64,000 nucleotides of DNA from Eledone cirrhosa (lineage: Eukaryota), in assembly GCA_964016885.1 (NCBI GenBank), contig OZ024744.1, positions 135,904,001 through 135,968,000 of the forward strand, given 5' to 3'. Of the stretch, positions 19,501-58,911 are shown one piece after another (position 1 is the first letter of the stretch; each line of letters opens with the position of its first letter). The translations under genes and the position numbers were made by a program. Below the pieces are notes generated by a model, which ran no database searches, was not told the origin of the DNA, and saw only the letters and a list, made by a program, of their open reading frames with translations.

Positions 19501-20297
19501 GAGGAATCAGATGTAGTGTGTAGGAGAGGAGACTGTGTTGGTATAGACATGTGATGAACAGAGATGAACTGAGAGAGAAACTAGGTATAAGAGGAATCAG
19601 ATGTAGTGTGTAGGAGAGGAGACTGTCTTGCTATAGACATGTGATGTGTATAGATGAACTGAGAGAGAAACTAGGTATAAGAGGAATCAGATGTAGTGTG
19701 TAGGAGAGGAGACTGTGTTGGTATAGACATGTGATGTGTAATGATGAACTGAGAGAGAAACTAGGTATAAGAGGAATCAGATGTAGTGTGTAGGAGAGGA
19801 GACTGTGTTGGTATAGACATGTGATGTGTATGGATGAACTGAGAGAGAAACTAGGTATAAGAGGAATCAGATGTAGTGTGTAGGAGAGGAGACTGTGTTG
19901 GTATAGACATGTGATGTGTATGGATGAACTGAGAGAGAAACTAGGTATAAGAGGAATCAGATGTAGTGTGTAGGAGAGAAGATTGTGTTTGTATAGACAT
20001 GGGATGTGTATGGATGAAGTGAGAGGGAAACTAGGTATAAGAAGAATCAGATGTAGTGTGTAGGAGAGGAGACTGTTTGTATAGACATGTGATGTGTATG
20101 GATGAACTGAGAGAGAAACTAGGTATAAGAAGAATCAGATGTAGTGTGTAGGAGAGGAGACTGTGTTGGTATAGACATGTGATGTGTATGGATGGACTGG
20201 GAGAGAAACTAGGTATAAGAGGAATCAGATGTAGGAGAGGTGATTGTGTTGGTATAGACATGGGATGTGTATAGATGAACTGAGAGAGAAACTAGGT
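1576..20297 (+). repeat. Higher-order tandem duplication, unit 9,349 bp (about 1,576-10,948 and 10,925-20,297)
   Basis: ORF-track pairs 3264/12613, 5355/14704, 8522/17871 and 10682/20031 share offset 9,349. Rare variant monomers recur in the same order, with only a few differences (e.g. 4389-4390, 5386, 8537, 10174). Confidence 0.93.
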
Positions 20298-23200: not shown

Positions 23201-23880
23201 AGAGTAACTAGGTATAAGAGGAATCAGATGTAGGAGAGGTGATTGTGTTGGTATAGACATGGGATGCGTATAGATGAACTGAGAGAGAAACTAGGTTTAA
23301 GAGGAATCAGATGTAGGAGAGGAGACTGTGTTTGTATAGACATGTGATGTGTATGGATGAACTGAGAGAGAAACTAGGTTTAAGAGGAATCAGATGTAGG
23401 AGAGGAGACTGTGTTAGTAGAGACATGAAATGTGTATGGATGAACTGAGAAAGAATCTAGGTATATGAGGAATCAGATGTAGGAGAGGAGACTGTTAGTA
23501 TAGACATGGGATGTGTATGGATGAACTGAGAGAGAAACTAGGTATAAGAGGAATCAGATGTAGGAGAGGAGACTGTGTTGGTATAGACATGTGATGTGTA
23601 TGGATGAACTGAGAGAGAAACTAGGTATAAGAGGAATCAGATATAGTGTGTAGGAGAGGAGACTGTGTTGGTATAGACATGTGATGTGTATAGATGAACT
23701 GAGAGAGAAACTAGTTATAAGAGGAATCAGATGTAGGAGAGGTGATTGTGTGTGTATAGACAGGGGATGTGTATAGATGAACTGAGAGAGAAACTAGGTT
23801 TAACAGGAATCAGATGTAGTGTGTAGGAGAGGAGACTGTGTTGGTATAGACATGTGATGTGTATGGATGAACTGAGAGAG

Positions 23881-26800: not shown

Positions 26801-29800
26801 ATGTGTATGGATGAACTGAGAGAGAAACTAGGTATAAGAGGAATCAGATGTAGGAGAGGAGACTGTGTTGGTATAGACATGTGATGTGTATGGATGAACT
26901 GAGAGAGAAACTAGGTATAAGAGGAATCAGATATAGTGTGTAGGAGAGGAGACTGTGTTGGTATAGACATGTGATGTGTATAGATGAACTGCGAGAGAAA
27001 CTAGTTATAAGAGGAATCAGATGTAGGAGAGGTGATTGTGTGTGTATAGACAGAGGATGTGTATAGATGAACTGAGAGAGAAACTAGGTTTAACAGGAAT
27101 CAGATGTAGTGTGTAGGAGAGGAGACTGTGTTGGTATAGACATGTGATGTGTATGGATGAACTGAGAGAGAAACTAGGTATAAGAGGAATCAGATGTAGT
27201 GTGTAGGAGAGGAGACTGTGTTGGTATAGACATGTGATGAACAGAGATGAACTGAGAGAGAAACTAGGTATAAGAGGAATCAGATGTAGTGTGTAGGAGA
27301 GGAGACTGTCTTGCTATAGACATGTGATGTGTATAGATGAACTGAGAGAGAAACTAGGTATAAGAGGAATCAGATGTAGTGTGTAGGAGAGGAGACTGTG
27401 TTGGTATAGACATGTGATGTGTAATGATGAACTGAGAGAGAAACTAGGTATAAGAGGAATCAGATGTAGTGTGTAGGAGAGGAGACTGTGTTGGTATAGA
27501 CATGTGATGTGTATGGATGAACTGAGAGAGAAACTAGGTATAAGAGGAATCAGATGTAGTGTGTAGGAGAGGAGACTGTGTTGGTATAGACATGTGATGT
27601 GTATGGATGAACTGAGAGAGAAACTAGGTATAAGAGGAATCAGAGGTAGTGTGTAGGAGAGGAGACTGTGTTGGTATAGACATGTGATGTGTATGGATGG
27701 ACTGGGAGAGAAACTAGGTATAAGAGGAATCAGATGTAGGAGAGGTGATTGTGTTGGTATAGACATGGGATGTGTATAGATGAACTGAGAGAGAAACTAG
27801 GTTTAAGAGGAATCAGATGTAGGAGAGGAGACTGTGTTTGTATAGACATGTGATGTGTATGGATGAACTGAGAGAGAAACTAGGTTTAAGAGGAATCAGA
27901 TGTAGGAGAGGAGACTGTGTTAGTAGAGACATGGAATGTGTATGGATGAACTGAGAAAGAAACTAGGTATATGAGGAATCAGATGTAGGAGAGGAGACTG
28001 TTAGTATAGACATGGGATGTGTATGGATGAACTGAGAGAGAAACTAGGTATAAGAGGAATCAGATGTAGGAGAGGAGACTGTGTTGGTATAGACATGTGA
28101 TGTGTATGGATGAACTGAGAGAGAAACTAGGTATAAGAGGAATCAGATATAGTGTGTAGGAGAGGAGACTGTGTTGGTATAGACATGTGATGTGTATAGA
28201 TGAACTGAGAGAGAAACTAGTTGTAAGAGGAATCAGATGTAGGAGAGGAGACTGTGTTGGTATAGACAGGGGATGTGTATAGATGAACTGAGAGAGAAAC
28301 TAGGTTTAACAGGAATCAGATGTAGTGTGTAGGAGAGGAGACTGTGTTGGTATAGACATGTGATGTGTATGGATGAACTGAGAGAGAAACTAGGTATAAG
28401 AGGAATCAGATGTAGTGTGTAGGAGAGGTGACTGTGTTAGTATAGACATGTGATGAACTGAGAGAGAAACTAGGTATAAGAGGAATCAGATGTAGTGTGT
28501 AGGAGAGGAGACTGTGTTGGTATAGACATGTGATGAACAGAGATGAACAAGGTATAAGAGGAATCAGATGTAGTGTGTAGGAGAGGAGACTGTGTTGGTA
28601 TAGACATGTGATGTGTAATGATGAACTGAGAGAGAAACTAGGTATAAGAGGAATCAGATGTAGTGTGTAGGAGAGGAGACTGTGTTGGTATAGACATGTG
28701 ATGTGTATGGATGAACTGAGAGAGAAACTAGGTATAAGAGGAATCAGATGTAGTGTGTAGGAGAGAAGATTGTGTTTGTATAGACATGGGATGTGTATGG
28801 ATGAAGTGAGAGGGAAACTAGGTATAAGAAGAATCAGATGTAGTGTGTAGGAGAGGAGACTGTTTGTATAGACATGTGATGTGTATGGATGAACTGAGAG
28901 AGAAACTAGGTATAAGAAGAATCAGATGTAGTGTGTAGGAGAGGAGACTGTTTGTATAGACATGTGATGTGTATGGATGAACTGGGAGAGAAACTAGGTA
29001 TAAGAGGAATCAGATGTAGGAGAGGTGATTGTGTTGGTATAGACATGGGATGTGTATAGATGAACTGAGAGAGAAACTAGGTTTAAGAGGAATCAGATGT
29101 AGGAGAGGAGACTGTGTTAGTAGAGACATGGATTGTGTATGGATGAACTGAGAAAGAAACTAGGTGTAAGAGGAATCAGATGTAGGAGAGGAGACTGTTA
29201 GTATAGACATGGGATGTGTATGGATGAACTGAGAGAGAAACTAGGTATAAGAGGAATCAGATGTAGGAGAGGAGACTGTGTTGGTATAGACATGTGATGT
29301 GTATGGATGAACTGAGAGAGAAACTAGGTATAAGAGGAATCAGATGTAGTGTGTAGGAGAGGAGACTGTGTTGGTATAGACATGTGATGTGTATGGAGGA
29401 ACTGAGAGAGAAACTAGGTATAAGAGGAATCAGATGTAGGAGAGGTGATTGTGTGGGTATAGACAGGGGATGTGTATAGATGAACTGAGAGAGAAACTAG
29501 GTTTAACAGGAATCAGATGTAGTGTGTAGGAGAGGAGACTGTGTTGGTATAGACATGTGATGTGTATGGATGAACTGAGAGAGAAACTAGGTATAAGAGG
29601 AATCAGATGTAGTGTGTAGGAGAGGAGACTGTGTTGGTATAGACATGTGATGTGTATGGATGAACTGAGAGAGAAACTAGTTATAAGAGGAATCAGATGT
29701 AGTGTGTAGGAGAGGTGACTGTGTTAGTATAGACATGTGATGTGTAATGATGAACTGAGAGAGAAACTAGTTATAAGAGGAATCAGATGTAGTGTGTAGG

Positions 29801-32800
29801 AGAGGAGACTGTGTTGGTATAGACATGTGATGTGTATGGATGAAGTGAGAGGGAAACTAGGTATAAGAGGAATCAGATGTAGTGTGTAGGAGAGAAGACT
29901 GTCTTTGTATAGACATGGGATGTGTATGGATGAAGTGAGAGGGAAACTAGGTATAAGAAGAATCAGATGTAGTGTGTAGGAGAAGAGACTGTTTGTATAG
30001 ACATGTGATGTGTATGGATGAACTGAGAGAGAAACTAGGTATAAGAAGAATCAGATGTAGTGTGTAGGAGAGCAGACTGTTTGTATAGACATGTGATGTG
30101 TATGGATGAACTGGGAGAGAAACTAGGTATAAGAGGAAACAGATGTAGGAGAGGTGATTGTGTTGGTATAGACATGGGATGTGTATAGATGAACTGAGAG
30201 AGAAACTAGGTTTAAGAGGAATCAGATGTAGGAGAGGAGACTGTGTTAGTAGAGACATGGAATGTGTATGGATGAACTGAGACAGAAACTAGGTATAAGA
30301 GGAATCAGATGTAGGAAAGGAGACTGTGTTAGTATAGACATGGGATGTGTATGGATGAACTGAGAGAGAAACTAGGTATAAGAGGAATCAGATGTAGGAG
30401 AGGAGACTGTTAGTATAGACATGGGATGTGTATGGATGAACTGAGAGAGAAACTAGGTATAAGAGGAATCAGATGTAGGACAGGAGACTGTGTTGGTATA
30501 GACAGGGGATGTGTATGGATGAACTAAGAAAGAAACTATGAATAACAGGAATCAGATGTAGTGTGTAGGAGAGGAGACTGTGTTGGTATAGACATGTGAT
30601 GTGTATGGATGAACTGAGAGAGAAACTAGTTATAAGAGGAATCAGATGTAGGAGAGGTGATTGTGTGGGTATAGACAGGGGATGTGTATAGATGAACTGA
30701 GAGAGAAACTAGGTTTAACAGGAATCAGATGTAGTGTGTATGAGAGGAGACTGTGTTGGTATAGATATGTGATGAACAGAGATAAACAAGGTATAAGAGG
30801 AATCAGATGTAGTGTGTAGGATAGGAGACTGTGTTTGTATAGACATGGGATGTGTATGGATGAACTGAGAGAGAAACTAGGTTTAAAAGGAATCAGATGT
30901 AGTGCGTAGGAGAGGAGACTGTGTTGGTATAGACATGTGATGTGTATGGATGAACTGAGAGAGAAACTAGTTATGAGAGGAATCAGATGTAGTGTGTAGG
31001 AGAGGTGACTGTGTTAGTATAGACATGTGATGTGTATAGATGAAGTGAGAGAGAAACTAGGTATAAGAAGAATCAGATGTAGTGTGTAGGAGAGGAGACT
31101 GTTTGTATAGACCTGTGATGTGTATGGATGAACTGAGAGAGAAACTAGGTATAAGAGGAATCAGATGTAGTGTGTAGGAGAGGAGACTATTTGTATAGAC
31201 ATGTGATGTGTATGGATGAACTGAGAGAGAAACTAGGTATAAGAGGAATCAGATGTAGGAGAGGACACTGTGTTGGTATAGACAGGGGATGTGTATGGAT
31301 GAACTAAGAAAGAAACTATGTATGACAGGAATCAGATGTAGTGTGTAGGAGAGGAGACCGTGTTTGTATAGACATGGGATGTGTATGGATGAACTGAGAG
31401 AGAAACTAGGTATAAGAGGAATCAGATGTAGTTTGTAGGGGAGGAGACTGTGTTTGTATAGACATGGGATGTGTATGGATGAACTAAGAAAGAAACTATG
31501 TATAACAGGAATCAGATGTAGTGTGTAGGAGAGGAGACTGTGTTGGTATAGACATGTGATGTGTATGGATGCACTAAGAGTGAAACTAGGTATAAGAGGA
31601 ATCAGATGTAGTGTGTAGGAGAGAAGACTGTGTTTGTATAGACACGGGATGTGTATGGATGAACTGAGAGAGAAACTAGGTATAAGAGGAATCAGATGTA
31701 ATGTGTAGGATAGGAGACTGTGTTTGTATAGACATGGGATGTGTATGGATGAACTGTGAGAGAAACTAGTTATGAGAGGAATCAGATGTAGGAGAGGTGA
31801 TTGTGTTGGTTTAGACATGTGATGTGTATGGATGAACTGAGAGAGAAACTAGGTATAAGAGGAATCAGATGTAGGAGAGGAGACTGTGTTGGTATAGACA
31901 TGTGATGTGTATGGATGAACTAAGAAAGAAACAATGTATAACAGGAATCAGATGTACTGTGTAGGAGAGGAGACTGTGTTGGTATAGACATGTGATGAAC
32001 TGAGAGAAAAACTATGTATAAGAGGAATCAGATGTAGTGTGTAGGAGAGGAGACTGTGTGGGTATAGACATGTGATGTGTATGGATGAGCTGAGAGATAA
32101 ACTAGGTATAAGAGGAATCAGATGTAGTGTGTAGGAGAGGTGACTGTGTTAGTATAGACATCTGATGAACTGAGAGAGAAACTAGGTATAAGAGGAATCA
32201 GATGTAGTGTGTAGGAGAGGAGACTGTGTTGGTATAGACATGTGATGAACAGAGATGAACTGAGAGAGAAACTAGGTATAAGAGGAATCAGATGTAGTGT
32301 GTAGGAGAGGAGACTGTCTTGCTATAGACATGTGATGTGTATAGATGAACTGAGAGAGAAACTAGGTATAAGAGGAATCAGATGTAGTGTGTAGGAGAGG
32401 AGATTGTGTTGGTATAGACATGTGATGTGTAATGATGAACTGAGAGAGAAACTAGGTATAAGAGGAATCAGATGTAGTGTGTAGGAGAGGAGACTGTGTT
32501 GGTATAGACATGTGATGTGTATGGATGAACTGAGAGAGAAACTAGGTATAAGAGGAATCAGATGTAGTGTGTAGGAGAGGAGACTGTGTTGGTATAGACA
32601 TGTGATGTGTATGGATGAACTGAGAGAGAAACTAGGTATAAGAGGAATCAGATGTAGTGTGTAGGAGAGAAGATTGTGTTTGTATAGACATGGGATGTGT
32701 ATGGATGAAGTGAGAGGGAAACTAGGTATAAGAAGAATCAGATGTAGTGTGTAGGAGAGGAGACTGTTTGTATAGACATGTGATGTGTATGGATGAACTG

Positions 32801-35800
32801 AGAGAGAAACTAGGTATAAGAAGAATCAGATGTAGTGTGTAGGAGAGGAGACTGTGTTGGTATAGACATGTGATGTGTATGGATGGACTGGGAGAGAAAC
32901 TAGGTATAAGAGGAATCAGATGTAGGAGAGGTGATTGTGTTGGTATAGACATGGGATGTGTATAGATGAACTGAGAGAGAAACAAGGTTTAAGAGGAATC
33001 AGATGTAGGAGAGGAGACTGTGTTGGTATAGACATGTGATGTGTATGGATGAACTGAGAGAGAAACTAGGTATAAGAGGAATCAGATGTAGTGTGTAGGA
33101 GAGGAGACTGTGTTGGTATAGACATGTGATGTGTATGGATGAACTGAGAGAGAAACTAGTTATAAGAGGAATCAGATGTAGTGTGTAGGAGAGGTGACTG
33201 TGTTAGTATAGACATGTGATGAAGTGAGAGAGGAACTAGGTATAAGAGGAATCAGATGTAGTGTGTAGGAGAGGAGACTGTGTTGGTATAGACATGTGAT
33301 GAACAGAGATGAACAAGGTATAAGAGGAATCAGATGTAGTGTGTAGGAGAGGGGACTGTGTTGGTATAGACATGTGATGTGTAATGATGAACTGAGAGAG
33401 AAACTAGTTATAAGAGGAATCAGATGTAGTGTGTAGGAGAGGAGACTGTGTTGGTATAGACATGTGATGTGTATGGATGAAGTGAGAGGGAAACTAGGTA
33501 TAAGAGGAATCAGATGTAGTGTGTAGGAGAGAAGACTGTGTTTGTATAGATATGTGATGAACAGAGATAAACAAGGTATAAGAGGAATCAGATGTAGTGT
33601 GTAGGATAGGAGACTGTGTTTGTATAGACATGGGATGTGTATGGATGAACTGAGAGAGAAACTAGGTATAAGAGGAATCAGATATAGGAGAGGAGACTGT
33701 GTTGGTATAGACATGTGATGTGTATGGATGAACTGAGAGAGAAACTAGGTATAAGAGGAATCAGATGTAGGAGAGGAGACTGTGTTGGTATAGACATGTG
33801 ATGTGTATGGATGAACTGAGAGAGAAACTAGGTATAAGAGGAATCAGATGTAGGAGAGGAGACTGTGTTGGTATAGACATGTGATGTGTATGGATAAACT
33901 GAGAGAGAAACTAGGTATATATAGGAATCAGATGTAGTGTGTAGGAGAGGAGACTGTGTTGGTATAGACATGTGATGTGTAATGATGAACTGAGAGAGAA
34001 ACTAGGTATAAGAGGAATCAGATGTAGTGTGTAGGAGAGTAGACTTTGTTGGTATAGACATGGGATGTGTATGGATGAAGTGAGAGGGAACCTAGGTATA
34101 AGAAGAATCAGATGTAGTGTGTAGGATAGGAGACTGTGTTGGTATAGACAAGTGATGTGTATGGATGAAATGAGAGAGAAACTAGGTATAAGAGGAATCA
34201 GATGTAGTGTGTAGGAGAGAAGACTGTGTTTGTATAGACATGGGAGGTGTATGGATGAAGTGAGAGGGAAACTAGGTATGAGAAGAATCAGATGTAGTGT
34301 GTAGGAGAGGAGACTGTTTGTATAGACATGTGATGTGTATGGATGAACTGAGAGAGAAACTAGGTATAAGAGGAATCAGATGTAGTGTGTAGGAGAGGAG
34401 ACTGTGTTGGTATAGGCATGTGATGTGTATGGATAAACTGAGAGAGAAACTAGGTATAAGAGGAATCAGATGTAGTGTGTAGGAGAGGAGACTGTGTTGG
34501 TATAGACATATGATGTGTATGGATGAAGTGAGAGAGAAACTAGGTATGAGAAAAATCAGATGTAGTGTGTAGGAGAGGAGACTGTTTGTATAGACATGTG
34601 ATGTGTATGGATGAACTGAGAGAGAAACTAGGTATAAGAAGAATCAGATGTAGTGTGTAGGAGAGGAGACTGTTTGTATAGACATGTGATATGTATGGAT
34701 GAACTGGGAGAGAAACTAGGTATAAGAGGAATCAGTTGTAGGAGAGGTGATTGTGTTGGTATAGACATGGGATGCGTATAGATGAACTGAGAGAGAAACT
34801 AGGTTTAAGAGGAATCAGATGTAGGAGAGGAGACTGTGTTTGTATAGACATGTGATGTGTATGGATGAACTGAGAGAGAAACTAGGTTTAAGAGGAATCA
34901 GATGTAGGAGAGGAGACTGTGTTAGTAGAGACATGGAATGTGTATGGATGAACTGAGAAAGAATCTAGGTATATGAGGAATCAGATGTAGGAGAGGAGAC
35001 TGTTAGTATAGACATGGGATGTGTATGGATGAACTGAGAGAGAAACTAGGTATAAGAGGAATCAGATGTAGGAGAGGAGACTGTGTTGGTATAGACATGT
35101 GATGTGTATGGATGAACTGAGAGAGAAACTAGGTATAAGAGGAATCAGATATAGTGTGTAGGAGAGGAGACTGTGTTGGTATAGACATGTGATGTGTATA
35201 GATGAACTGCGAGAGAAACTAGTTATAAGAGGAATCAGATGTAGGAGAGGTGATTGTGTGTGTATAGACAGAGGATGTGTATAGATGAACTGAGAGAGAA
35301 ACTAGGTTTAACAGGAATCAGATGTAGTGTGTAGGAGAGGAGACTGTGTTGGTATAGACATGTGATGTGTATGGATGAACTGAGAGAGAAACTAGGTATA
35401 AGAGGAATCAGATGTAGTGTGTAGGAGAGGTGACTGTGTTAGTATAGACATGTGATGAACTGAGAGAGAAACTAGGTATAAGAGGAATCAGATGTAGTGT
35501 GTAGGAGAGGAGACTGTGTTGGTATAGACATGTGATGAACAGAGATGAACTGAGAGAGAAACTAGGTATAAGAGGAATCAGATGTAGTGTGTAGGAGAGG
35601 AGACTGTCTTGCTATAGACATGTGATGTGTATAGATGAACTGAGAGAGAAACTAGGTATAAGAGGAATCAGATGTAGTGTGTAGGAGAGGAGACTGTGTT
35701 GGTATAGACATGTGATGTGTAATGATGAACTGAGAGAGAAACTAGGTATAAGAGGAATCAGATGTAGTGTGTAGGAGAGGAGACTGTGTTGGTATAGACA

Positions 35801-38800
35801 TGTGATGTGTATGGATGAACTGAGAGAGAAACTAGGTATAAGAGGAATCAGATGTAGTGTGTAGGAGAGGAGACTGTGTTGGTATAGACATGTGATGTGT
35901 ATGGATGAACTGAGAGAGAAACTAGGTATAAGAGGAATCAGAGGTAGTGTGTAGGAGAGGAGACTGTGTTGGTATAGACATGTGATGTGTATGGATGGAC
36001 TGGGAGAGAAACTAGGTATAAGAGGAATCAGATGTAGGAGAGGTGATTGTGTTGGTATAGACATGGGATGTGTATAGATGAACTGAGAGAGAAACTAGGT
36101 TTAAGAGGAATCAGATGTAGGAGAGGAGACTGTGTTTGTATAGACATGTGATGTGTATGGATGAACTGAGAGAGAAACTAGGTTTAAGAGGAATCAGATG
36201 TAGGAGAGGAGACTGTGTTAGTAGAGACATGGAATGTGTATGGATGAACTGAGAAAGAAACTAGGTATATGAGGAATCAGATGTAGGAGAGGAGACTGTT
36301 AGTATAGACATGGGATGTGTATGGATGAACTGAGAGAGAAACTAGGTATAAGAGGAATCAGATGTAGGAGAGGAGACTGTGTTGGTATAGACATGTGAAG
36401 TGTATGGATGAACTGAGAGAGAAACTAGGTATAAGAGGAATCAGATATAGTGTGTAGGAGAGGAGACTGTGTTGGTATAGACATGTGATGTGTATAGATG
36501 AACTGAGAGAGAAACTAGTTGTAAGAGGAATCAGATGTAGGAGAGGAGACTGTGTTGGTATAGACAGGGGATGTGTATAGATGAACTGAGAGAGAAACTA
36601 GGTTTAACAGGAATCAGATGTAGTGTGTAGGAGAGGAGACTGTGTTGGTATAGACATGTGATGTGTATGGATGAACTGAGAGAGAAACTAGGTATAAGAG
36701 GAATCAGATGTAGTGTGTAGGAGAGGTGACTGTGTTAGTATAGACATGTGATGAACTGAGAGAGAAACTAGGTATAAGAGGAATCAGATGTAGTGTGTAG
36801 GAGAGGAGACTGTGTTGGTATAGACATGTGATGAACAGAGATGAACAAGGTATAAGAGGAATCAGATGTAGTGTGTAGGAGAGGAGACTGTGTTGGTATA
36901 GACATGTGATGTGTAATGATGAACTGAGAGAGAAACTAGGTATAAGAGGAATCAGATGTAGTGTGTAGGAGAGGAGACTGTGTTGGTATAGACATGTGAT
37001 GTGTATGGATGAACTGAGAGAGAAACTAGGTATAAGAGGAATCAGATGTAGTGTGTAGGAGAGAAGATTGTGTTTGTATAGACATGGGATGTGTATGGAT
37101 GAAGTGAGAGGGAAACTAGGTATAAGAAGAATCAGATGTAGTGTGTAGGAGAGGAGACTGTTTGTATAGACATGTGATGTGTATGGATGAACTGAGAGAG
37201 AAACTAGGTATAAGAAGAATCAGATGTAGTGTGTAGGAGAGGAGACTGTTTGTATAGACATGTGATGTGTATGGATGAACTGGGAGAGAAACTAGGTATA
37301 AGAGGAATCAGATGTAGGAGAGGTGATTGTGTTGGTATAGACATGGGATGTGTATAGATGAACTGAGAGAGAAACTAGGTTTAAGAGGAATCAGATGTAG
37401 GAGAGGAGACTGTGTTAGTAGAGACATGGATTGTGTATGGATGAACTGAGAAAGAAACTAGGTGTAAGAGGAATCAGATGTAGGAGAGGAGACTGTTAGT
37501 ATAGACATGGGATGTGTATGGATGAACTGAGAGAGAAACTAGGTATAAGAGGAATCAGATGTAGGAGAGGAGACTGTGTTGGTATAGACATGTGATGTGT
37601 ATGGATGAACTGAGAGAGAAACTAGGTATAAGAGGAATCAGATGTAGTGTGTAGGAGAGGAGACTGTGTTGGTATAGACATGTGATGTGTATGGAGGAAC
37701 TGAGAGAGAAACTAGGTATAAGAGGAATCAGATGTAGGAGAGGTGATTGTGTGGGTATAGACAGGGGATGTGTATAGATGAACTGAGAGAGAAACTAGGT
37801 TTAACAGGAATCAGATGTAGTGTGTAGGAGAGGAGACTGTGTTGGTATAGACATGTGATGTGTATGGATGAACTGAGAGAGAAACTAGGTATAAGAGGAA
37901 TCAGATGTAGTGTGTAGGAGAGGAGACTGTGTTGGTATAGACATGTGATGTGTATGGATGAACTGAGAGAGAAACTAGTTATAAGAGGAATCAGATGTAG
38001 TGTGTAGGAGAGGTGACTGTGTTAGTATAGACATGTGATGTGTAATGATGAACTGAGAGAGAAACTAGTTATAAGAGGAATCAGATGTAGTGTGTAGGAG
38101 AGGAGACTGTGTTGGTATAGACATGTGATGTGTATGGATGAAGTGAGAGGGAAACTAGGTATAAGAGGAATCAGATGTAGTGTGTAGGAGAGAAGACTGT
38201 CTTTGTATAGACATGGGATGTGTATGGATGAAGTGAGAGGGAAACTAGGTATAAGAAGAATCAGATGTAGTGTGTAGGAGAAGAGACTGTTTGTATAGAC
38301 ATGTGATGTGTATGGATGAACTGAGAGAGAAACTAGGTATAAGAAGAATCAGATGTAGTGTGTAGGAGAGCAGACTGTTTGTATAGACATGTGATGTGTA
38401 TGGATGAACTGGGAGAGAAACTAGGTATAAGAGGAAACAGATGTAGGAGAGGTGATTGTGTTGGTATAGACATGGGATGTGTATAGATGAACTGAGAGAG
38501 AAACTAGGTTTAAGAGGAATCAGATGTAGGAGAGGAGACTGTGTTAGTAGAGACATGGAATGTGTATGGATGAACTGAGACAGAAACTAGGTATAAGAGG
38601 AATCAGATGTAGGAAAGGAGACTGTGTTAGTATAGACATGGGATGTGTATGGATGAACTGAGAGAGAAACTAGGTATAAGAGGAATCAGATGTAGGAGAG
38701 GAGACTGTTAGTATAGACATGGGATGTGTATGGATGAACTGAGAGAGAAACTAGGTATAAGAGGAATCAGATGTAGGACAGGAGACTGTGTTGGTATAGA

Positions 38801-40227
38801 CAGGGGATGTGTATGGATGAACTAAGAAAGAAACTATGAATAACAGGAATCAGATGTAGTGTGTAGGAGAGGAGACTGTGTTGGTATAGACATGTGATGT
38901 GTATGGATGAACTGAGAGAGAAACTAGTTATAAGAGGAATCAGATGTAGGAGAGGTGATTGTGTGGGTATAGACAGGGGATGTGTATAGATGAACTGAGA
39001 GAGAAACTAGGTTTAACAGGAATCAGATGTAGTGTGTAGGAGAGGAGACTGTGTTGGTATAGATATGTGATGAACAGAGATAAACAAGGTATAAGAGGAA
39101 TCAGATGTAGTGTGTAGGATAGGAGACTGTGTTTGTATAGACATGGGATGTGTATGGATGAACTGAGAGAGAAACTAGGTTTAAAAGGAATCAGATGTAG
39201 TGCGTAGGAGAGGAGACTGTGTTGGTATAGACATGTGATGTGTATGGATGAACTGAGAGAGAAACTAGTTATGAGAGGAATCAGATGTAGTGTGTAGGAG
39301 AGGTGACTGTGTTAGTATAGACATGTGATGTGTATAGATGAAGTGAGAGAGAAACTAGGTATAAGAAGAATCAGATGTAGTGTGTAGGAGAGGAGACTGT
39401 TTGTATAGACCTGTGATGTGTATGGATGAACTGAGAGAGAAACTAGGTATAAGAGGAATCAGATGTAGTGTGTAGGAGAGGAGACTATTTGTATAGACAT
39501 GTGATGTGTATGGATGAACTGAGAGAGAAACTAGGTATAAGAGGAATCAGATGTAGTTTGTAGGGGAGGAGACTGTGTTTGTATAGACATGGGATGTGTA
39601 TGGATGAACTAAGAAAGAAACTATGTATAACAGGAATCAGATGTAGTGTGTAGGAGAGGAGACTGTGTTGGTATAGACATGTGATGTGTATGGATGCACT
39701 AAGAGTGAAACTAGGTATAAGAGGAATCAGATGTAGTGTGTAGGAGAGAAGACTGTGTTTGTATAGACACGGGATGTGTATGGATGAACTGAGAGAGAAA
39801 CTAGGTATAAGAGGAATCAGATGTAATGTGTAGGATAGGAGACTGTGTTTGTATAGACATGGGATGTGTATGGATGAACTGTGAGAGAAACTAGTTATGA
39901 GAGGAATCAGATGTAGGAGAGGTGATTGTGTTGGTTTAGACATGTGATGTGTATGGATGAACTGAGAGAGAAACTAGGTATAAGAGGAATCAGATGTAGG
40001 AGAGGAGACTGTGTTGGTATAGACATGTGATGTGTATGGATGAACTAAGAAAGAAACAATGTATAACAGGAATCAGATGTACTGTGTAGGAGAGGAGACT
40101 GTGTTGGTATAGACATGTGATGAACTGAGAGAAAAACTATGTATAAGAGGAATCAGATGTAGTGTGTAGGAGAGGAGACTGTGTGGGTATAGACATGTGA
40201 TGTGTATGGATGAGCTGAGAGATAAAC
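23881..40227 (+). repeat. Higher-order tandem duplication, unit ~8.2 kb (about 23,881-32,100 and 32,099-40,227)
   Basis: Offsets are 8,218 (24504/32722, 24954/33172), then 8,298 (27314/35612, 29947/38245), then 8,125 (31818/39943). The shifts equal whole monomers (+80, -173). The marker CATCTGATGAAC occurs near 23,941 and 32,159. Confidence 0.92.
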
Positions 40228-43200
40228 AAGGTATAAGTGGAATCAGATGTAGTGTGTAGGAGAGGAGACTGTGCTGGTATAGATATGTGATGAACAGAGA
40301 TAAACAAGGTATAAGAGGAATCAGATGTAGTGTGTAGGAGAAGAGACTGTGTTGGTATAGACATGTGATGTGTAATGATGAACTGAGAGAGAAACTAGGT
40401 ATAAGAGGAATCAGATGTAGTGTGTAGGAGAGGAGACTGTGTTGGTAATGATGAACTGAGAGAGAAACTAGGTATAAGAGGAATCAGATGTAGTGTGTAG
40501 GAGAGGAGATTGTGCTGGTATAGACATGTGATGAACAGAGATAAACAAGGTATAAGAGGAATGAGATGTAGTGTGTAGGAGAGGAGACTGTGTTGGTAAT
40601 GATGAACTGAGAGAGAAACTAGGTATAAGAGGAATCAGGTGTAGTGTGTAGGAGAGGAGACTGTGTTGGTATAGACATGTGATGTGTAATGCTGGTATAG
40701 ACATGTGATGTGTATGAATGAACTGGGAGAGAAACTAGGTATAAGAGGAATCAGATGTAGGAGAGGAGACTGTGTTGGTATAGACATGGGATGTGTATAG
40801 ATGAACTGAGAGAGAAACTAGGTATAAGAGGAATCAGATGTGGTTTGTAGGGGAGGAGACTGTGTTTGTATAGACATGGGATGTGTATGGATGAACTAAG
40901 AAAGAAACTATGTATAACAGGAATCAGATGTAGTGTGTAGGAGAGAAGACTGTGTTTGTATAGACACGGGATGTGTATGGATGAACTGAGAGAGAAACTA
41001 GGTATAAGAAGAATCAGATGTAGTTTGTAGGGGAGGAGACTGTGTTTGTATAGACATGTGATGTGTATGGATGAACTGGGAGAGAAACTAGGTATAAGAG
41101 GAATCAGATGTAGGAGAGGAGACTCTGTTGGTATAGACATGGGATGTGTATAGATGAACTGAGAGAGAAACTAGGTTTAAGAGGAATCAGATGTAGGAGA
41201 GGAGACTGTGTTAGTAGAGACATGGAATGTGTATGGATGAACTGAGAGACAAACTAGTTATAAGAGGAATCAGATGTAGGAGAGGAGACTGTTAGTATAG
41301 ACATGGGATGTGTATGGATGAACTGAGAGAGAAACTAGGTATAAGAGGAATCATATGTAGGAGAGGAGACTGTGTTGGTATAGACATGGGATGTGTATAG
41401 ATGAACTGAGAGAGAAAATAGGTTTAACAGGAATCAGATGTAGTGTGTAGGAGAGGAGACTGTGTTGGTATAGACATGTGATGTGTATGGATGAACTGAG
41501 AGAGAAACTAGGTATAAGAGGAATCAGATGTAGTGTGTAGGAGAGGAGACTGTGTTGGTATAGACATGTGATATGTATGGATGCTCTAAGAGTGAAACTA
41601 GGTATAAGAGAAATCAGATGTAGTGTGTAGGAGAGAAGACTGTGTTTGTATAGACACGGGATGTGTATGGATGAACTGAGAGAGAAACTAGGTATTAGAA
41701 GAATCAGATGTAGTTTGTAGGGGAGGAGACTGTGTTTGTATAGACATGGGATGTGTATGGATGAACTGAGAGAGAAACTAGGTATAAGAGGAATCAGATG
41801 TAGGAGAGGTGATTGTGTGGGTATAGACATGGGATGAACTGAGAGAGAAACTAGGTATAAGAGGAATCAGATGTAGGAGAGGGGACTGTGTTAGTATAGA
41901 CATGGGATGTGTATGGATGAACTGAAAGAGAAACTAGGTATAAGAGGAATCAGATGTAGGAGAGGAGACTGTTAGTATAGACATGGGATGTGTATGGATG
42001 AACTGAGAGAGAAACTAGGTATAAGAGGAATCAGATGTAGGAGAGGAGACTGTGTTGGTTTAGACATGTGATGTGTATGGATGAACTAAGAAAGAAACTA
42101 TGTATAACAGGAATCAGATGTAGTGTGTAGGAGAGGAGACTGTGTTGGTATAGACATGTGATGTGTATGGATGAACTGAGAGAGAAACTAGGTATAAGAG
42201 GAATCAGATGTAGTGTGTAGGAGAGGAGACTGTGTTGGTATAGACATGTGATGAACTGAGAGAAAAACTAGGTATAAGAGGAATCAGATGTAGTGTGTAG
42301 GAGAGGAGACTGTGTGGGTATAGACATGTGATGTGTATGGATGAACTGAGAGATAAACAAGGTATAAGAGGAATCAGATGTAGTGTGTAGGAGAGGTGAC
42401 TGCGCTGGTATAGACATGTGATGAACAGAGATAAACAAGGTATAAGAGGAATCAGATGTAGTGTGTAGGAGAAGAGACTGTGTTGGTATAGACATGTGAC
42501 GTGTAATGATGAACTGAGAGAGAAACTAGGTATAAGAGGAATCAGATGTAGTGTGTAGGAGAGGAGACTGTGCTGGTATAGACATGTGATGAACAGAGAT
42601 AAACAAGGTATAAGAGGAATCAGATGTAGTGTGTAGAAGAGGAGACTGTGTTGGTATAGACATGTGATGTGTAATGCTGAACTGAGAGAGAAACTGGGTA
42701 TAAGAGGAATCAGATGTAGTGTGTAGGAGAGGAGACTGTGTTGGTATAGACATGTGATGTGTATGGATAAACTGAGAGAGAAACTAGGTATAAGAGGAAT
42801 CAGATGTAGTGTGTAGGAGAGGAGACTGTGTTGGTATAGACATGTGATGTGTAATGCTGAACTGAGAGAGAAACTGGGTATAAGAGGAATCAGATGTAGT
42901 GTGTAGGAGAGGAGACTGTGTTGGTATAGACATGTGATGTGTATGGATGAACTGAGAGAGAAACTAGGTATAAGAGGAATCAGATGTAGTGTGTAGTAGA
43001 GGAGACTGTTAGTATAGACATAGGATGTGTATGGATGAACTGAGAGAGAAACTATGTATGACAGGAATCAGATGTATTGTGTAGGAGAGGAGACTGTGTT
43101 GGTATAGACATGGGATGTGTATGGATGAACTGAGAGAGAAACTAGGTATAAGAGGAATCAGATGTAGGAGAGGAGACTGTGTTGATATAGATATGTGATG

Positions 43201-46200
43201 AACTGAGAGAGAAAGTAGGTATAAGAGGTGACTGTGTTAGTATAGACATGTGATGAACTGAGAGAGAAACTAGTTATGAGAGGAATCAGATGTAGGAGAG
43301 GTGATTGTGTTGGTATAGACATGGGATGTGTATAGATGAACTGAGAGAGAAACTAGGTATAACAGGAATCAGATGTGGAGTGTAGGAGAGGAGACACTGT
43401 TTGTATAGACATGTGATGTGTATGGATGAACTGAGAGAGAAACTAGGTATAACAGGAATCAGATGTGGAGTGTAGGAGAGGAGACTGTGTTGGTATAGAC
43501 ATGTGATGTGTATGGATGAACTGAGACAGAAATTAGGTATAAGAGGAATCAGATGTAGGAGAGGAGACTGTGTTAGTAGAGACATGGAATGTGTATGGAT
43601 GAACTGAGAGAGAAACTAGGTATAAGAGGAATCAGATGTAGTGTGTAGGAGAGGAGACTGTTAGTATAGACATAGGATGTGTATGGATGAACTGAGAGAG
43701 AAACTAGGTATAAAAGGAATCAGATGTAGGAGAGGAGACTGTGTTGGTATAGACAGGGGATGTGTATGGATGAACTAAGAAAGAAACTATGTATGACAGG
43801 AATCAGATGTAGTGTGTAGGAGAGGAGACTGTGTTGGTATAGACATGGGATGTGTATGGATAAAGTGAGAGAGAAACTAGGTATAAGAAGAATCAGATGT
43901 AGTGTGTAGGAGAGGAGACTGTGTTGGTATAGACATGTGATGTGTATGGATGAAGTGAGAGAGAAACTAGGTATAAGAAGAATCAGATGTAGTGTGTAGG
44001 AGAGGAGACTGTTTGTATAGACATGTGATTTGTATGGATGAACTGAGAGAGAAACTAGGTATAAGAGGAATCAGATGTAGGAGAGGAGACTGTGTTGGTA
44101 TAGACATGTGATGTGTATGGATGAACTGGGAGAGAAACTAGGTATAAGAGGAATCAGATGTAGGAGAGGAGACTGTGTTGGTATAGACATGTGATATGTA
44201 TGGATGAACTGGGAGAGAAACTAGGTATAAGAGGAATCAGATGTAGGAGAGGAGACTGTATTGGTATAGACATGGGATGTGTATAGATGAACTGAGAGAG
44301 AAACTAGGTTTAAGAGGAATCAGATGTAGGAGAGGAGACTGTGTTAGTAGAGACATGGAATGTGTATGGATGAACTGAGTGACAAACTAGTTATAAGAGG
44401 AATCAGATGTAGGAGAGGAGACTGTTAGTATAGACATGGGATGTGTATGGATGAACTGAGAGAGAAACTAGGTATAAGAGGAATCAGATGTAGGAGAGGA
44501 GACTGTGTTGGTATAGACATGTGATGTGTATGGATGAACTGAGAGAGAAACTAGGTATAAGAGGAATCAGATGTAGGAGAGGAGACTGTGTTGGTATAGA
44601 CATGGAATGTGTATGGATGAACTAAGAAATAAACTATGTATAACAGGAATCAGATGTAGTGTGTAGGAGAGGAGACTCTGTTGGTATAGACATGTGATGT
44701 GTATGGATGTACTGAGAGAGAAACTAGGTATGAGAGGAATCAGATGTAGTGTGTAGGAGAGGAGACTGTGTTGGTATAGACATGTGATGTGTATGGATGA
44801 ACTGAGAGAGAAACTAGTTATAAGAGGAATCAGATGTAGGAGAGGTGATTGTGTGGGTATAGACATGGGATGTGTATAGATGAACTGAGAGAGAAACTAG
44901 GTTTAACAGGAATCAGATGTAGTGTGTAGGAGAGGAGACTGTGTTGGTATAGACATGTGATGTGTATGGATGAACTGAGAGAGAATCTAGGTATAAGAGG
45001 AATCAGATGTAGTGTGTAGGAGAGGAGACTGTGTAGGTATAGACATGTGATGTGTATGGATGAACTGAGAGATAAACAAGGTATAAGAGGAATTAGATGT
45101 AGTGTGTAGGAGAGGAGACTGTGTTGGTATAGACATGTGATGTGTATGGATGAAGAGAAACTAGGTATAAGAGGAATCAGACGTAGTGTGTAGGATAGGA
45201 GACTGTTTGTATAGACATGGGATGTTTTTTTTACATGAACTGAGAGAGAAACTAGGTTTAAGAGGAATCAGATGTAGGAGAGGAGACTGTGTTGGTATAG
45301 ACATGTGATGTGTATGGATGGAGTGAGAGAGGAAGTAGGTATAACAGGAATCAGGTGTAGTGTGTAGGAGAGGAGACTGTGTTGGTATAGGCATGTGATG
45401 TGTATGGATAAACTGGGAGAGAAACTAGGTATAAGAGGAATCAGATGTAGGAGAGGAGACTGTGTTTGTATAGACATGTGATGTGTATGGATGGAGTGAG
45501 AGAGAAACTAGGTATAAGAGGAATCAGATGTAGTGTGTAGGAGAGGAGACTGTGTTGGTATAGACATGTGATGTGTATGGATGAACTGGGAGAGAAACTA
45601 GGTATAAGAGGAATCAGATGTAGGAGAGGAGACTGTGTTGGTATAGACATGTGATGTGTATGGATGAACTGAGAGAGAAACTAGGTATAAGCAGAATCAG
45701 ATGTAGTGTGTAGGAGAGGAGACTGTGTTGGTATAGACATGTGATGTGTATGGATGAACTGGGAGAGAAACTAGGTATAAGCAGAATCAGATGTAGTGTG
45801 TAGGAGAGGAGACTGTGTTGGTATAGACATGTGATGTGTATGGATGAACTGGGAGAGAAACTAGGTATAAGAGGAATCAGATGTAGGAGAGGAGACTGTG
45901 TTGGTATAGACATGTGATGTGTATGGATGAACTGAGAGAGAAACTAGGTATAAGCAGAATCAGATGTAGTGTGTAGGAGAGGAGACTGTGTTGGTATAGA
46001 CATGTGATGTGTATGGATGAACTGGGAGAGAAACTAGGTATAAGAGGAATCAGATGTAGGAGAGGAGACTGTGTTTGTATAGACATGTGATGTGTATGGA
46101 TGAACTGAGAGAGAAACTAGGTATAAGCAGAATCAGATGTAGTGTGTAGGAGAGGAGACTGTGTTGGTATAGACATGTGATGTGTATGGATGAACTGGGA

Positions 46201-47560
46201 GAGAAACTAGGTATAAGAGGAATCAGATGTAGGAGAGGAGACTGTGTTGGTATAGACATGTGATGTGTATGGATGAACTGAGAGAAAAACTAGGTATAAG
46301 AGGAATCAGATGTAGGAGAGGTGATTGTGTGGGTATAGACATGACATGTGTATAGAGGAACTAAGAGAGAAACTAGGTTTAAGAGGAATCAGATGTAGGA
46401 GAGGGGACTGTGTTAGTATAGACATGGGATGTGTATGGATGAACTGAGACAGAAACTAGGTTTAAGAGGAATCAGACGTAGGAGAGGAGACTGTGTTGGT
46501 ATAGACATGTGATGTGTATGGATGAACTGAGAGAGAAACTAGGTATAAGAGGAATCAGATGTAGTGTGTAGGAGAGGAGACTGTGTTGGTACAGACATGT
46601 GATGAACTGAGAGAAAAACTAGGTATAAGAGGAATCAGATGTAGTGTGTAGGAGAGGAGACTGTGTGGGTATAGACATGTGATGTGTATGGATGAACTGA
46701 GAGATAAAAAAGGTATAAGAGGAATCAGATGTAGTGTGTAGGAGAGGAGACTGTCTTGCTATAGACATGTGATGTGTAATGATGAACTGAGAGAGAAACT
46801 AGGTATAAGAGGAATCAGATGTAGTGTGTAGGAGAGGAGACTGTGTTGGTATAGGCATGTCATGTGTATGGATGAACTGAGAGAGAAACTAGGTATAAGA
46901 GGAATCAGATGTAGTGTGTAGGAGAGGAGACTGTGTTGGTATAGACATGTGATGTGTATGGATGAACTGAGAGAGAAACTAGGTTTAAGAGGAATCAGAT
47001 GTAGTGTGTAGGAGAGGAGACTGTGTTGGTATAGGCATGTGATGTGTATGGATGAACTGAGAGAGAAATTAGGTATAAGAGGAATCAGATGTAGTAAGAA
47101 CACTGAGTTGAAATAGACATGTGATGTGTATGGATGAAGTGAGAGAGGAAGTAGGTATAACAGGAATCAGGTGTAGTGTGTAGGAGAGGAGACTGTGTTG
47201 GTATAGACATGTGATGTGTATGGATGAACTGAGAAAGAAACTAGGTTTAAGAGGAATCAGATGTAGGAGAGGAGACTGTGTTGGTATAGGCATGTGATGT
47301 GTATGGATGAACTGGGAGAGAAACTAGGTTTAAGAGGAATCAGATGTAGGAGAGGAGACTGTTAGTATAGACATGGGATGTGTATGGATGAACTGAGCGA
47401 GAAACAAGGTATAAGAGGAATCAGATGTAGGAGAGGAGACTGTGTTGGTATAGACATGGAATGCGGTATGGATGAACTGAGAGAGAAACTAGGTATAAGA
47501 GGAATCAGATGTAGTGTGTAGGAGAGAAGACTGTGTTTGTGTAGACATGGGATGTGTATG

Positions 47561-47850
47561 GATGAACTGAGAGAGAAACTAGGTATAAGAGGAATCAGAC
47601 GTAGTGTGCAAGAGAGAAGACTGTTCTGGTATAGACATGGGATGTGTATGGATGATGATTGTCGGGTGAAGAAGTGTCAGGAGTACCCAGTGGAAGGTAG
47701 CTAGAGTAGAGGTAGACCAAGAAGTTCTGAGCAGAGGTTGTGAAAGCTGATCTCAAACTGCTGAGACTGGCAGAAGAGATGCTGTGCAGAGAAAGACATG
47801 TCCAACCCATACAAGCATGGAAAAAAACGGACATATAAATGAGGATGGTG
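47561..47850 (+). mobile_element. 3' end of the RTE-clade LINE that seeded the satellite (decayed)
   Basis: Reads DELREKLGIRGIRRSVQERRLFWYRHGMCMDDDCRVKKCQEYPVEGS*SRGRPR, then after a frameshift AEVVKADLKLLRLAEEM and AVQRKTCP. This is collinear with the RTE fragment at 52,278-52,691. It ends in ACCCATACAAGCATGGAAAAAAACGGACATATAAATGAGGATGGTG, the same tail type as the other RTE/SINE copies. Confidence 0.9.
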
Positions 47851-48494: not shown

Positions 48495-48690
48495 ATCTTC
48501 TTCATCGACGCCCACTTATTCCTGAGAGAGTTGTTGGAAGCAGAGTCCTCAAACACTCCTTCCAGCAGGTCCTGTCAGAAGCAACCGTCTCCAACTGATC
48601 CAGCTGGATCCCCAAGTGAACCAGCCAAGTTCATGGATGTTATCTGGATCAGAGTCTACACCTGGGTCTTTCCTGAGACATTCTAACCAC
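48495..48690 (-). mobile_element. Decayed 3' end of a second RTE family (Expander/Rex3-like C-terminus)
   Basis: Minus strand reads RPRCR, then DNIHELGW, then LGIQLDQLETVASDRTCWKECLRTLLP (with frameshifts). This resembles the RTE C-terminal pattern RPRGRP..W.D.I..L.W..LGI....L..VA.DR..W...LR.LPP. Confidence 0.7.
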
Positions 48691-49024
48691 ATGTCATAGT
48701 ATCAGTGCTGTGATCTCCCAATTCAGAGATTCTTTCCTGAGACATTCTAACCACATGTCATAGTATCAGAGCTGTGATCTCTTAATTCAGAGATTCTTTC
48801 CTGAGACATTCTAACCACATGTCTGTAGTATCAGAGCTGTGATCTCTCAATTCAGAGATTCTTTCCTGAGACATTCTAACCACATGTCATAGTATCAGAG
48901 CTGTGATCTCTCAATTCAGAGATTCTTTCCTGAGACATTCTAACCACATGTCCATAGTATCAGAGCTGTGATCTCTCAATTTAGAGATTCTTTCCTGAGA
49001 TATTCTAACCACATGTCTGTAGTA
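48667..49024 (-). repeat. Minisatellite, 64-65-bp unit x ~5.5, derived from RTE coding sequence
   Basis: Units start at 48,667, 48,731, 48,795, 48,860, 48,924 and 48,989. The minus strand of the 48,924 unit reads IERSQL*YYGHVVRMSQER (TGA probably from CGA). Confidence 0.93.
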
Positions 49025-49039
49025 AGTCGTGGCTCTACT

Positions 49040-50486: not shown

Positions 50487-51012
50487 CATCATCATCATCA
50501 TCACCGTTTTACATCCGTTCTTCCACGCTAGCATGGGTTAGACGGGTTGTCCTGTTGTGGGCAGTGTCCGGTCGGCTGACCTTGTCTTGCTCATACGGGA
50601 ACTGATTCTGGCTTGATTTCTACAGCTGGATGTCCTTCCTAACACCAACCTCATTTACAGTGAGTGCTGAGTGTTTTTTTCCGTGGGGCCTACACATCCA
50701 CTTTACAGTGTGGGCTGGGTGCTTTTTTGCCGTGGCACCTCCACGACCACTTTGCAGTGGGAGGGGTGGGGGCATATTGTCTATATGCTTCAGCTTCGGC
50801 TTGTACCCGTGGGGGTTCAGGTCTTCTGTATTACTGCGTAACGCCAGAGGTCACAGTCCTGTGTCATCGCCTTTGAGAGGTGTAATTGGGTAAGGTCGGC
50901 TTTTATCATCTCATCTCAGGTCTTCTTGGGTCTCCCCACTCTGCAGTTTCCATCGACTTCTAGTGATCTGCACCTTTTTATGCAGCTGTCATCCTTCATA
51001 CGCAACATGTCC
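50487..51012 (-). mobile_element. 5'-truncated RTE LINE 3' fragment with (GAT)n tail
   Basis: (CAT)n at 50,487-50,503 on +. Highly similar to 52,172-52,625. Homology begins at the GHV codons of the ORF. Confidence 0.85.
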
Positions 51013-52106: not shown

Positions 52107-52171
52107 CTCTTCCACTTCCTCCAAGCGTGAACCTGTGTAAAATTACCTCCTGTGTTTTGTTTGTTACATTA

Positions 52172-58876: not shown

Positions 58877-58911
<35 letters not shown>

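What the first reader, a model, noticed from the sequence alone, without database searches (positions are those of the whole stretch)
48495..49024. A second, independent tandem repeat from the same RLRW-GHV-RM motif of a different RTE family
Seen: the 64-bp minisatellite reads IERSQL*YYGHVVRMSQER on the minus strand and leads directly into an RTE 3' end (DNIHELGW..LGIQLDQLETVASDRTCWKECLRTLLP). Its nucleotide sequence, unit length and strand differ from the large satellite, yet it covers the homologous protein motif. It also has the same layout, with repeats on the 5' side and unique LINE 3' end after them. Inference: this part of the RTE template may be a hotspot for repeat birth, for example by the RT pausing and recopying a short window during target-primed reverse transcription, with later expansion by unequal exchange. 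I know of no description of such a recurrent mechanism, but two cases cannot establish it.
Basis: partly seen in the sequence, partly recalled or inferred. Interest (0 to 1): 0.8.

Follow-up and report, generated by a model that had tools for sequence, protein, structure and literature searches.

The report
Tandem arrays spreading between dead retrotransposons
A short coding stretch of dead jumping-gene copies is duplicated into tandem repeats at hundreds of places in this genome, far more often over one conserved motif than elsewhere in the gene, and these repeats likely spread from copy to copy by DNA recombination rather than being made anew by the element's own reverse transcriptase.

Summary
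The 64/65-bp array (5.5 units, minus strand) is real and comes from the RLRWxGHV-type codons of an RTE-like LINE. It is not a lone event. Its junction occurs 31,707 times genome-wide, at many separate insertions. A 123-bp duplication over the same codons marks at least 248 loci, and the window's 90-bp satellite junction is dispersed too. In 800 kb of small chromosomes taken at fixed coordinates, 12 of 51 motif-covering RTE copies, from four families, carry a duplication over the motif, against 1.4% for average DNA; 8 of 9 distinct coding-region junctions span it. So the hotspot holds. The proposed mechanism (reverse-transcriptase stutter) fits poorly: only 12 of 248 junction loci lie on the four giant chromosomes (54% of the genome), array units are about half as diverged as their own flanks, near-identical 90-bp units sit inside two different RTE families, and the motif shows no special RNA fold. 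Best reading: microhomology-born duplications spread between dead copies by ectopic recombination, then expand. Why births cluster here is unresolved. The scan earlier noted single LINE-derived satellites in other genomes, not this pattern.

The parts
48667..49017 (-). 64/65-bp tandem array, 5.5 units, covering the RSQLRYYGHVVRMSQER codons of RTE family B (about -34 to +36 nt from the Gly codon of GHV)
48496..48669 (-). 3' end of the RTE-B copy with a short GAA tail; joined to the last unit across a deletion of about 40 bp, with one further 8-bp deletion
49024..49038 (-). 5' stub of the same RTE-B copy (upstream element sequence, followed by a deletion into the first partial unit); marks the 5' truncation point
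   Evidence: read by eye against the family alignment
1..47655 (+). 90/83-bp satellite over the homologous RLRWYGHVM codons of RTE family A'; still satellite at probes up to 126 kb upstream of the window; same junction at 10 or more other loci
47656..47845 (+). 3' end of the RTE-A' copy that terminates the 90-bp satellite

Best explanation
Tandem duplications over the conserved RLRWxGHV-type codons of dead RTE LINE copies recur with identical junctions at hundreds of loci, and they likely spread from copy to copy by ectopic homologous recombination (gene conversion or re-inserted DNA circles), then expand locally. Steps: (1) shown: 5'-truncated RTE copies are scattered genome-wide, each with its own tail and flanks. 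(2) Inferred: now and then a copy gains a 65-200 bp duplication, usually at a 4-8 bp microhomology. (3) Shown: two-unit seeds grow or shrink after insertion (5.5 against 15.5 units in a 98-99% identical duplicate; internal units are chimeras of first and last unit). (4) Inferred: arrays act as repair templates for other RTE copies, with the most conserved codons as landing site, even across families. (5) Inferred: the 98- and 65-bp units are microhomology deletions inside 123-bp arrays; some grew to 50-170 kb satellites. (6) Inferred: all this runs fastest on small chromosomes and chromosome ends, presumably because recombination is highest there.
For: Same junction at 248 exact-match loci, control 0. 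The 30 inspected have their own flanks apart from two duplicate pairs, and three show target-site duplications. 0 of 248 on C1 and 12 on C1-C4, while no-junction copies occur at 0.65/Mb on C1 against 0.78/Mb overall (binomial P about 1e-45). The 90-bp junction has the same bias: no exact match on C1-C8. Terminal units of 29 multi-unit arrays are 4.3% diverged against 8.7% for their own 3' parts; solitary copies show 8.0% against 9.1% (Wilcoxon P 4e-6). 90-bp units on C9, C12, C20 and C28 differ by as few as 1-5 of 70 nt, yet the C9 array starts and ends in family C sequence while the window's ends in family A'. On C24 one unit type is closer to a C22 array (3-4 differences) than to the other unit types of its own array (6-12). 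65-, 98- and 123-bp junctions co-occur within single elements (L068, L074, L075, L235). No clear master-specific variant in unique parts of 69 junction against 72 normal copies, and equal age.
Against: In 15 two-unit loci the sequence near the junction is not less diverged than the far parts (7.0% against 6.3%, P 0.49). The four alleles enriched in arrays show no linkage, and rare variants are not shared in excess. The 123-bp junction has no exact microhomology and keeps the reading frame (41 codons), as a master-element event might. One variant in the unique part (c396) is rarer in junction copies, 2 of 69 against 16 of 69, uncorrected P 0.0006. Low unit divergence could also come from within-array bias against new variants. 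The model does not explain why four families each gave birth to a duplication over the same motif. The C22 array could be a native duplication of its own copy.
Confidence: 0.6

Rival explanations
1. A master RTE copy carried the in-frame 123-nt duplication and retrotransposed it (as SVA carries its VNTR); arrays then expanded or collapsed locally.
For: Identical non-homologous, in-frame junction. In 14 two-unit loci the two units carry mostly independent changes (56 and 70 private, 26 shared, of 1,193 sites), so the duplication is about as old as the insertions. A few copies are truncated only 14-19 nt upstream of the junction (L163, L164).
Against: It does not explain 0 of 248 on C1: copies truncated just upstream of the junction should resist collapse and should be there too. 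No convincing diagnostic variants. It cannot put one 90-bp unit into two families. The 65-bp unit is out of frame and carries a CGA-to-TGA stop.
Confidence: 0.2
2. One reading: the reverse transcriptase stalls and jumps back at fixed points on the RNA during each insertion, writing the duplication anew.
For: Units are as old as the insertion in two-unit loci. Several single-locus duplications start at the element's 5' end (L173, L262, L302). In families with short 3' UTRs the motif lies 200-300 nt from the 3' end, where many copies are truncated.
Against: Strong chromosome bias. No folding signal over the motif in four families (z between about -2 and +1.3 in 100-nt windows). The two units of the family D duplication are 94% alike, closer to each other than to the family reference, which points to a post-insertion event. 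Units are shared across families.
Confidence: 0.1
3. Each array arises independently by local microhomology slippage in a genome full of minisatellites, and the motif only looks special because of 3' coverage and local repetitiveness.
For: 119 arrays in 800 kb of small chromosomes, 48 of them in 10 unit families shared between loci and mostly not from RTE coding sequence. Microhomology pairs are dense around the motif in families A and D. Off-motif duplications exist (L173, L177, L085, L092, L263), and the best-supported back-joints in another organism's contigs lie 3' of the motif.
Against: Coverage-normalised enrichment remains (P 1e-6 for 8 junctions, 0.002-0.011 with one event per family). 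Family B has few microhomologies there, and the 123-bp junction has none that is exact yet recurs 248 times.
Confidence: 0.1

Closest known systems
Rsp-like satellite spreading into 1.688 clusters in Drosophila (Sproul et al. 2020, PMC7403614; passages read)
   Same: A microhomology-born junction is reused at many loci and is proposed to spread by interlocus gene conversion or extrachromosomal circles, seeded by an abundant repeat already present there.
   Different: There the landing sites are another satellite on one chromosome; here they are dispersed dead LINE copies on many chromosomes, the unit is the LINE's own coding sequence, and several families do it at the homologous motif.
Satellites from Ogre LTR-retrotransposon internal arrays in Lathyrus (Vondrak et al., PMC7004042; abstract read)
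   Same: Short arrays inside dispersed retrotransposons that expand only in certain chromosome regions.
   Different: By the abstract, those arrays lie within LTR elements and expand at primary constrictions; here most copies lack the array, it lies in the ORF of a non-LTR element, and it is concentrated on small chromosomes and chromosome ends.
LINE-derived satellites: chicken HinfI from CR1, PROsat and the cetacean common satellite from L1 (as listed in review PMC9659126; section 2.2 and passages read)
   Same: The satellite monomer is a piece of a LINE, partly ORF2.
   Different: Single satellite families per case; the review finds no conclusive evidence that specific TE portions are preferred, whereas here one motif is preferred in four families.
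RTE elements as sources of microsatellite families (PMC2887409; passages read)
   Same: Abundant 3' RTE fragments seed dispersed tandem repeats.
   Different: Those repeats are the 3-6 bp tails, attributed to slippage at retrotransposition; here the units are 65-200 bp of coding sequence.
SVA/LAVA VNTR composite retrotransposons (search listing only; mechanism recalled)
   Same: A variable tandem array inside a retrotransposed element.
   Different: In SVA the VNTR is carried by the source elements; here array-bearing copies show no clade or insertion pattern of their own.

Membership tests
RTE-clade non-LTR retrotransposon (family B) | Single ORF with AP endonuclease and reverse transcriptase domains | tested here: inconclusive
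   The window copy is only a 3' fragment. Its relatives of about 950-1,130 aa carry PF00078 plus PF14529/PF03372 (P0010, 67% identity over the aligned part). No full-length copy was recovered from this genome.
RTE-clade non-LTR retrotransposon (family B) | Short 3' UTR ending in a short tandem-repeat tail (feature as stated in PMC1291365) | tested here: met
   Stop codon followed within a few codons by a (GAA)n tail in many copies.
RTE-clade non-LTR retrotransposon (family B) | 5'-truncated copies with target-site duplications | tested here: met
   Variable 5' ends in 30 of 30 C1 copies; duplications flanking L151, L156, L168 read by eye; none seen at the window's own copy.
RTE-clade non-LTR retrotransposon (family B) | RT phylogeny groups with RTE-1, BovB or Rex3 | not tested
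   No reference RTE set was available; the clade label rests on structure and on recalled motifs.
Transposon-derived satellite DNA | Monomer homologous to part of a transposable element | tested here: met
   65-bp unit 84-97% identical to single-copy family members.
Transposon-derived satellite DNA | Long head-to-tail arrays | tested here: met
   65-bp matches span more than 50 kb at C2:369.28-369.33 Mb and about 70 kb at C2:413.54-413.61 Mb; 90-bp array satellite at all probes over 174 kb.
VNTR-carrying composite retrotransposon (SVA-like) | Array-bearing copies descend from array-bearing source elements (diagnostic variants, distribution like the parent family) | tested here: not met
   One weak candidate variant outside the unit; 12 of 248 on C1-C4 against about 45% expected.
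Satellite spread by interlocus exchange (Sproul et al. model) | One junction reused at many unlinked loci | tested here: met
Satellite spread by interlocus exchange (Sproul et al. model) | Units more alike between loci than their flanks | tested here: met
   but no linkage among the enriched alleles
Satellite spread by interlocus exchange (Sproul et al. model) | Extrachromosomal circles or 3D contacts linking donor and recipient loci | not testable with these tools
   No circle-sequencing or Hi-C data were available.

The most novel reading that the evidence does not exclude
The conserved RLRWxGHV codons of RTE LINEs are a genome-wide recombination landing pad and break hotspot. Tandem arrays born there behave as selfish, contagious elements nested inside dead retrotransposons: they convert further copies, cross family boundaries, and seed new satellites wherever recombination is high, with no transposase or reverse transcriptase of their own.
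Probability: 0.35. Interest if true: 0.85.

Novelty: new variant of a known kind. Interest (0 to 1): 0.65.

Why it matters
How satellites are born and how they reach new chromosomes is an old question with few replicated cases. Here hundreds of dated, individually flanked LINE insertions show every stage from two units to arrays of more than 100 kb, in several families at once, so birth site, spread and expansion can be tested statistically. A 2022 review (PMC9659126, section 2.2) found no conclusive evidence that particular parts of transposons are preferred; this genome offers a counter-example. It also warns that these arrays distort LINE consensus building and age estimates.

Tried and rejected
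Segmental duplication as the source of the many loci: rejected; 22 elements in the C19/C20/C12 stretches have distinct 3' flanks except the pair L245/L246. Assembly artefact: rejected; the 80-bp family A junction stands in raw reads of another sample (461 reads, 14 start places) and 65- and 99-bp joints or loose ends appear in contigs of other coded organisms. Back-splicing or lariat origin of the 123-bp junction: no fitting splice signals by eye. Hairpin-driven expansion: the alleles enriched in arrays do not consistently strengthen DNA folding, and sliding-window folding shows nothing special at the motif. Master element plus collapse on giant chromosomes: disfavoured (see rivals). Pure distance from the 3' end instead of the motif: considered because family C (400-nt UTR) had 0 of 14 motif duplications in the blind sample and many UTR arrays, but three family C copies do carry motif arrays; the two variables stay partly confounded. 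Contig depth is not a copy number and was used only to show presence. Pfam found nothing meaningful on the C-terminal fragments and RVT_1 only on the family C ORF. A direct count of the least-diverged no-junction copies per chromosome was not obtained, so their density on C2-C4 is extrapolated from the first 154 Mb of C1.

Full report
Observation. The window is G000:C28:135,904,001-135,968,000, about 0.5 Mb from the contig end. It holds a 90-bp satellite at 1-47655 and a period-64 array of 5.5 copies at 48667-49017. On the minus strand the small array reads IERSQL*YYGHVVRMSQER and is followed by the quoted C-terminal peptide. Against its family the last unit is joined to the 3' end across a deletion of about 40 bp. 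The whole locus is duplicated at C28:123.6 Mb, 98-99% identical outside the arrays, with 15.5 units instead of 5.5, so copy number changed after insertion. The host looks like a cephalopod; that is a guess from recalled repeats and comes from no call.

The element. Family B has at least 5,544 3' ends, ends in (GAA)n and is usually 5'-truncated. Its closest proteins are endonuclease plus reverse transcriptase ORFs of about 1,000 aa. The family behind the 90-bp satellite (A') aligns to these over the same motif at 24% identity. The label RTE rests on this structure; I built no tree with named RTE members.

Not two cases but hundreds. The 65-bp junction matches 31,707 times with one mismatch, control 0. 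It ends in an RTE 3' end with its own tail at separate loci (L201, L202, L226, L227; L320), and some arrays span 50-70 kb. Among 18 other top hits to the window's 3' end, 2 carried a 123-bp array over the same codons. A pattern for that junction plus the terminal unit matches 248 loci, control 0, against 2,342 for the no-junction form. Of 30 inspected, many have exactly one duplication and others up to 13 or more units; two pairs are duplicates, and three show target-site duplications by eye. The 90-bp junction matches 5,991 times, with exact hits at 10 loci among the first 100 listed, and the window's array is satellite at every probe up to 126 kb upstream.

Hotspot test. I took 80 stretches of 10 kb at fixed coordinates on C19-C27 and 20 on C1-C4 and mapped RTE fragments on references for five families. 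52 rows cover the GHV codons; two are one repeated block, leaving 51. Twelve carry a tandem duplication over the motif: family B 7 of 15, A 2 of 12, D 1 of 8, F 2 of 2, C 0 of 14. Only 1.4% of collapsed DNA lies inside a 45-250 bp repeated unit. Counting distinct junctions, 8 of 9 span the motif; the ninth is a 33-bp duplication just upstream in family C. Given coverage, the chance that those 8 all span it is 1e-6, or 0.002-0.011 with one event per family. These figures were computed before the ninth was found and are somewhat too small; long arrays are also more likely to be hit by a stretch. In the giant-chromosome stretches 0 of 4 motif-covering copies had a duplication, and 0 of 30 family B copies picked by their 3' end on C1 had an array. 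Off-motif cases exist: 85- and 32-bp units in 2 of 30 other C1 copies, a 47-bp duplication in two family A' copies, two off-motif back-joints of similar depth to the 80-bp one in family A contigs, and 38-44 bp back-joints 3' of the motif in another organism. The motif is preferred, not exclusive.

Timing. In 14 two-unit loci (one a partial duplicate of another locus) the units carry mostly private changes, 56 and 70 against 26 shared in 1,193 sites, so they are either as old as the insertion or come from different loci. In longer arrays the internal units are homogeneous chimeras of first and last unit, the mark of later unequal exchange. Junction and normal copies are the same age in their unique parts, about 9% diverged, with no clear diagnostic variant in 69 against 72 copies. 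The 65-, 98- and 123-bp junctions occur together in single elements, and the 65-bp junction sits on a short imperfect homology, so I infer that the shorter units are deletions within 123-bp arrays.

Location. The list is complete through C20: 0 loci on C1 and 12 on C1-C4, which make up 54% of the genome. No-junction copies occur at 0.65 per Mb on the first 154 Mb of C1 and 0.78 per Mb overall; extrapolating gives about 45% expected and P near 1e-45. C1 is not free of arrays: a 123-bp array lies at 211.5 Mb and 65-bp arrays at 30.5 Mb and in the last 40 Mb. The 90-bp junction has no exact match on C1-C8. An event fixed at insertion should not care about the landing chromosome.

Exchange between loci. 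Terminal units of 29 multi-unit arrays are 4.3% from the family yardstick while their own 3' parts are 8.7%; solitary copies give 8.0% and 9.1% (paired P 4e-6). Four alleles are commoner in 28 arrays than in 35 solitary copies (0.68, 0.50, 0.61, 0.61 against 0.31, 0.43, 0.34, 0.26), without linkage; the stronger counts pooled in 65-bp loci and a few misclassed rows. The clearest case is the 90-bp unit: on C9 it starts and ends in family C sequence, in the window it ends in family A' sequence, yet units on C9, C12, C20 and C28 differ by as few as 1-5 of 70 nt. A C24 array alternates unit types, one closer to a C22 array than to the other types beside it. Against this reading: no drop in divergence near the junction in 15 two-unit loci, no excess sharing of rare variants, and a 123-bp junction that is in frame and lacks exact microhomology.

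Why this motif. RNA and DNA folding over it is unremarkable in four families. Microhomologies are dense there in families A and D but not B or C. In families with short 3' UTRs the motif is confounded with a distance of 200-300 nt from the 3' end. As a landing site it makes sense, being the stretch most alike between families A' and C in the copies compared; as a birthplace in four families it remains unexplained.

Beyond this assembly. Reads of another sample under the same species label show the 80-bp family A junction (461 reads, 14 starts). Contigs of coded organisms B, C and E show 99-bp joints or loose ends that fit the 65- and 80-bp junctions, so the pattern is not private to this individual.

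Literature. Transposon-derived satellites are well known. Review PMC9659126 (section 2.2 and passages read) lists LINE cases and finds no conclusive evidence for preferred portions. PMC7403614 (passages) proposes spread of a microhomology-born junction by interlocus conversion or DNA circles, the closest mechanism. PMC7004042 (abstract) shows region-dependent expansion of arrays inside LTR elements. PMC2887409 and PMC1291365 (passages) give RTE features. PMC13282606 (first third and term passages), on octopus repeats, mentions tandem repeats only in its methods and references. Ten searches (listings seen) showed no paper on arrays recurring at this RTE motif; the library lacks most subscription papers and I opened no supplements, where repeat libraries could hold these units unremarked. 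The scan's earlier notes gave two single LINE-derived satellites in other genomes and nothing for this place or sequence.

Verdict. The best-supported mechanism is post-insertion: microhomology birth, ectopic spread, local expansion (0.6). A master-borne duplication (0.2), reverse-transcriptase stutter (0.1) and independent local slippage (0.1) remain. This is a new variant of a known kind, interest 0.65.

Noticed in passing
window 54589-55192: 61/68-bp tandem array whose unit resembles the long 3' UTR of RTE family C; similar 58-63 and 112-bp UTR arrays occur at L258, L261, L271.
   Followed up: partly
window 50488-51010 and about 52140-52700 (minus strand): Two 5'-truncated family C RTE copies with ATG-repeat tails; one is cut right at the GHV codons. 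The family has a built-in 48/49-bp repeat in its 3' UTR that is often expanded (16 arrays in the blind sample).
   Followed up: partly
window about 58900-62370 (+): A long, nearly open reading frame that looks like a reverse transcriptase element with a TAA-repeat tail; a related one seems to begin near 63200 (by eye).
   Followed up: no
window about 53170-54070 (+): 3' fragment of another LINE-like element (by eye).
   Followed up: no
L264, L265, L267, L293, L305, L309, L323, L334, L349: A 72-bp unit forms separate arrays at 9 of 80 blind stretches; other shared units of 48, 60, 77-81, 105 and 136 bp also recur. 48 of 119 arrays fall in 10 shared unit families, so dispersed arrays with a common unit are general in this genome.
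   Followed up: no
G000 C1-C4 and C28: Four contigs of 379-443 Mb against most others of 22-61 Mb, and two of about 135 Mb; complex tandem arrays were in 54 of 80 small-chromosome stretches and 5 of 20 giant-chromosome stretches.
   Followed up: partly
L053 3' end; L303:869-1328 (-): Chimeric elements: family B fused to family F at a shared short sequence, and family A' fused to a family C UTR just after the motif.
   Followed up: no
L089:2143-3201 (-): Family C ORF carries a PHD-like finger between the RT domain and the C-terminal motif (PF00628, E 2e-6).
   Followed up: no
L274: GC-rich 196/227-bp satellite with higher-order structure at C1:280 Mb, possibly centromeric.
   Followed up: no
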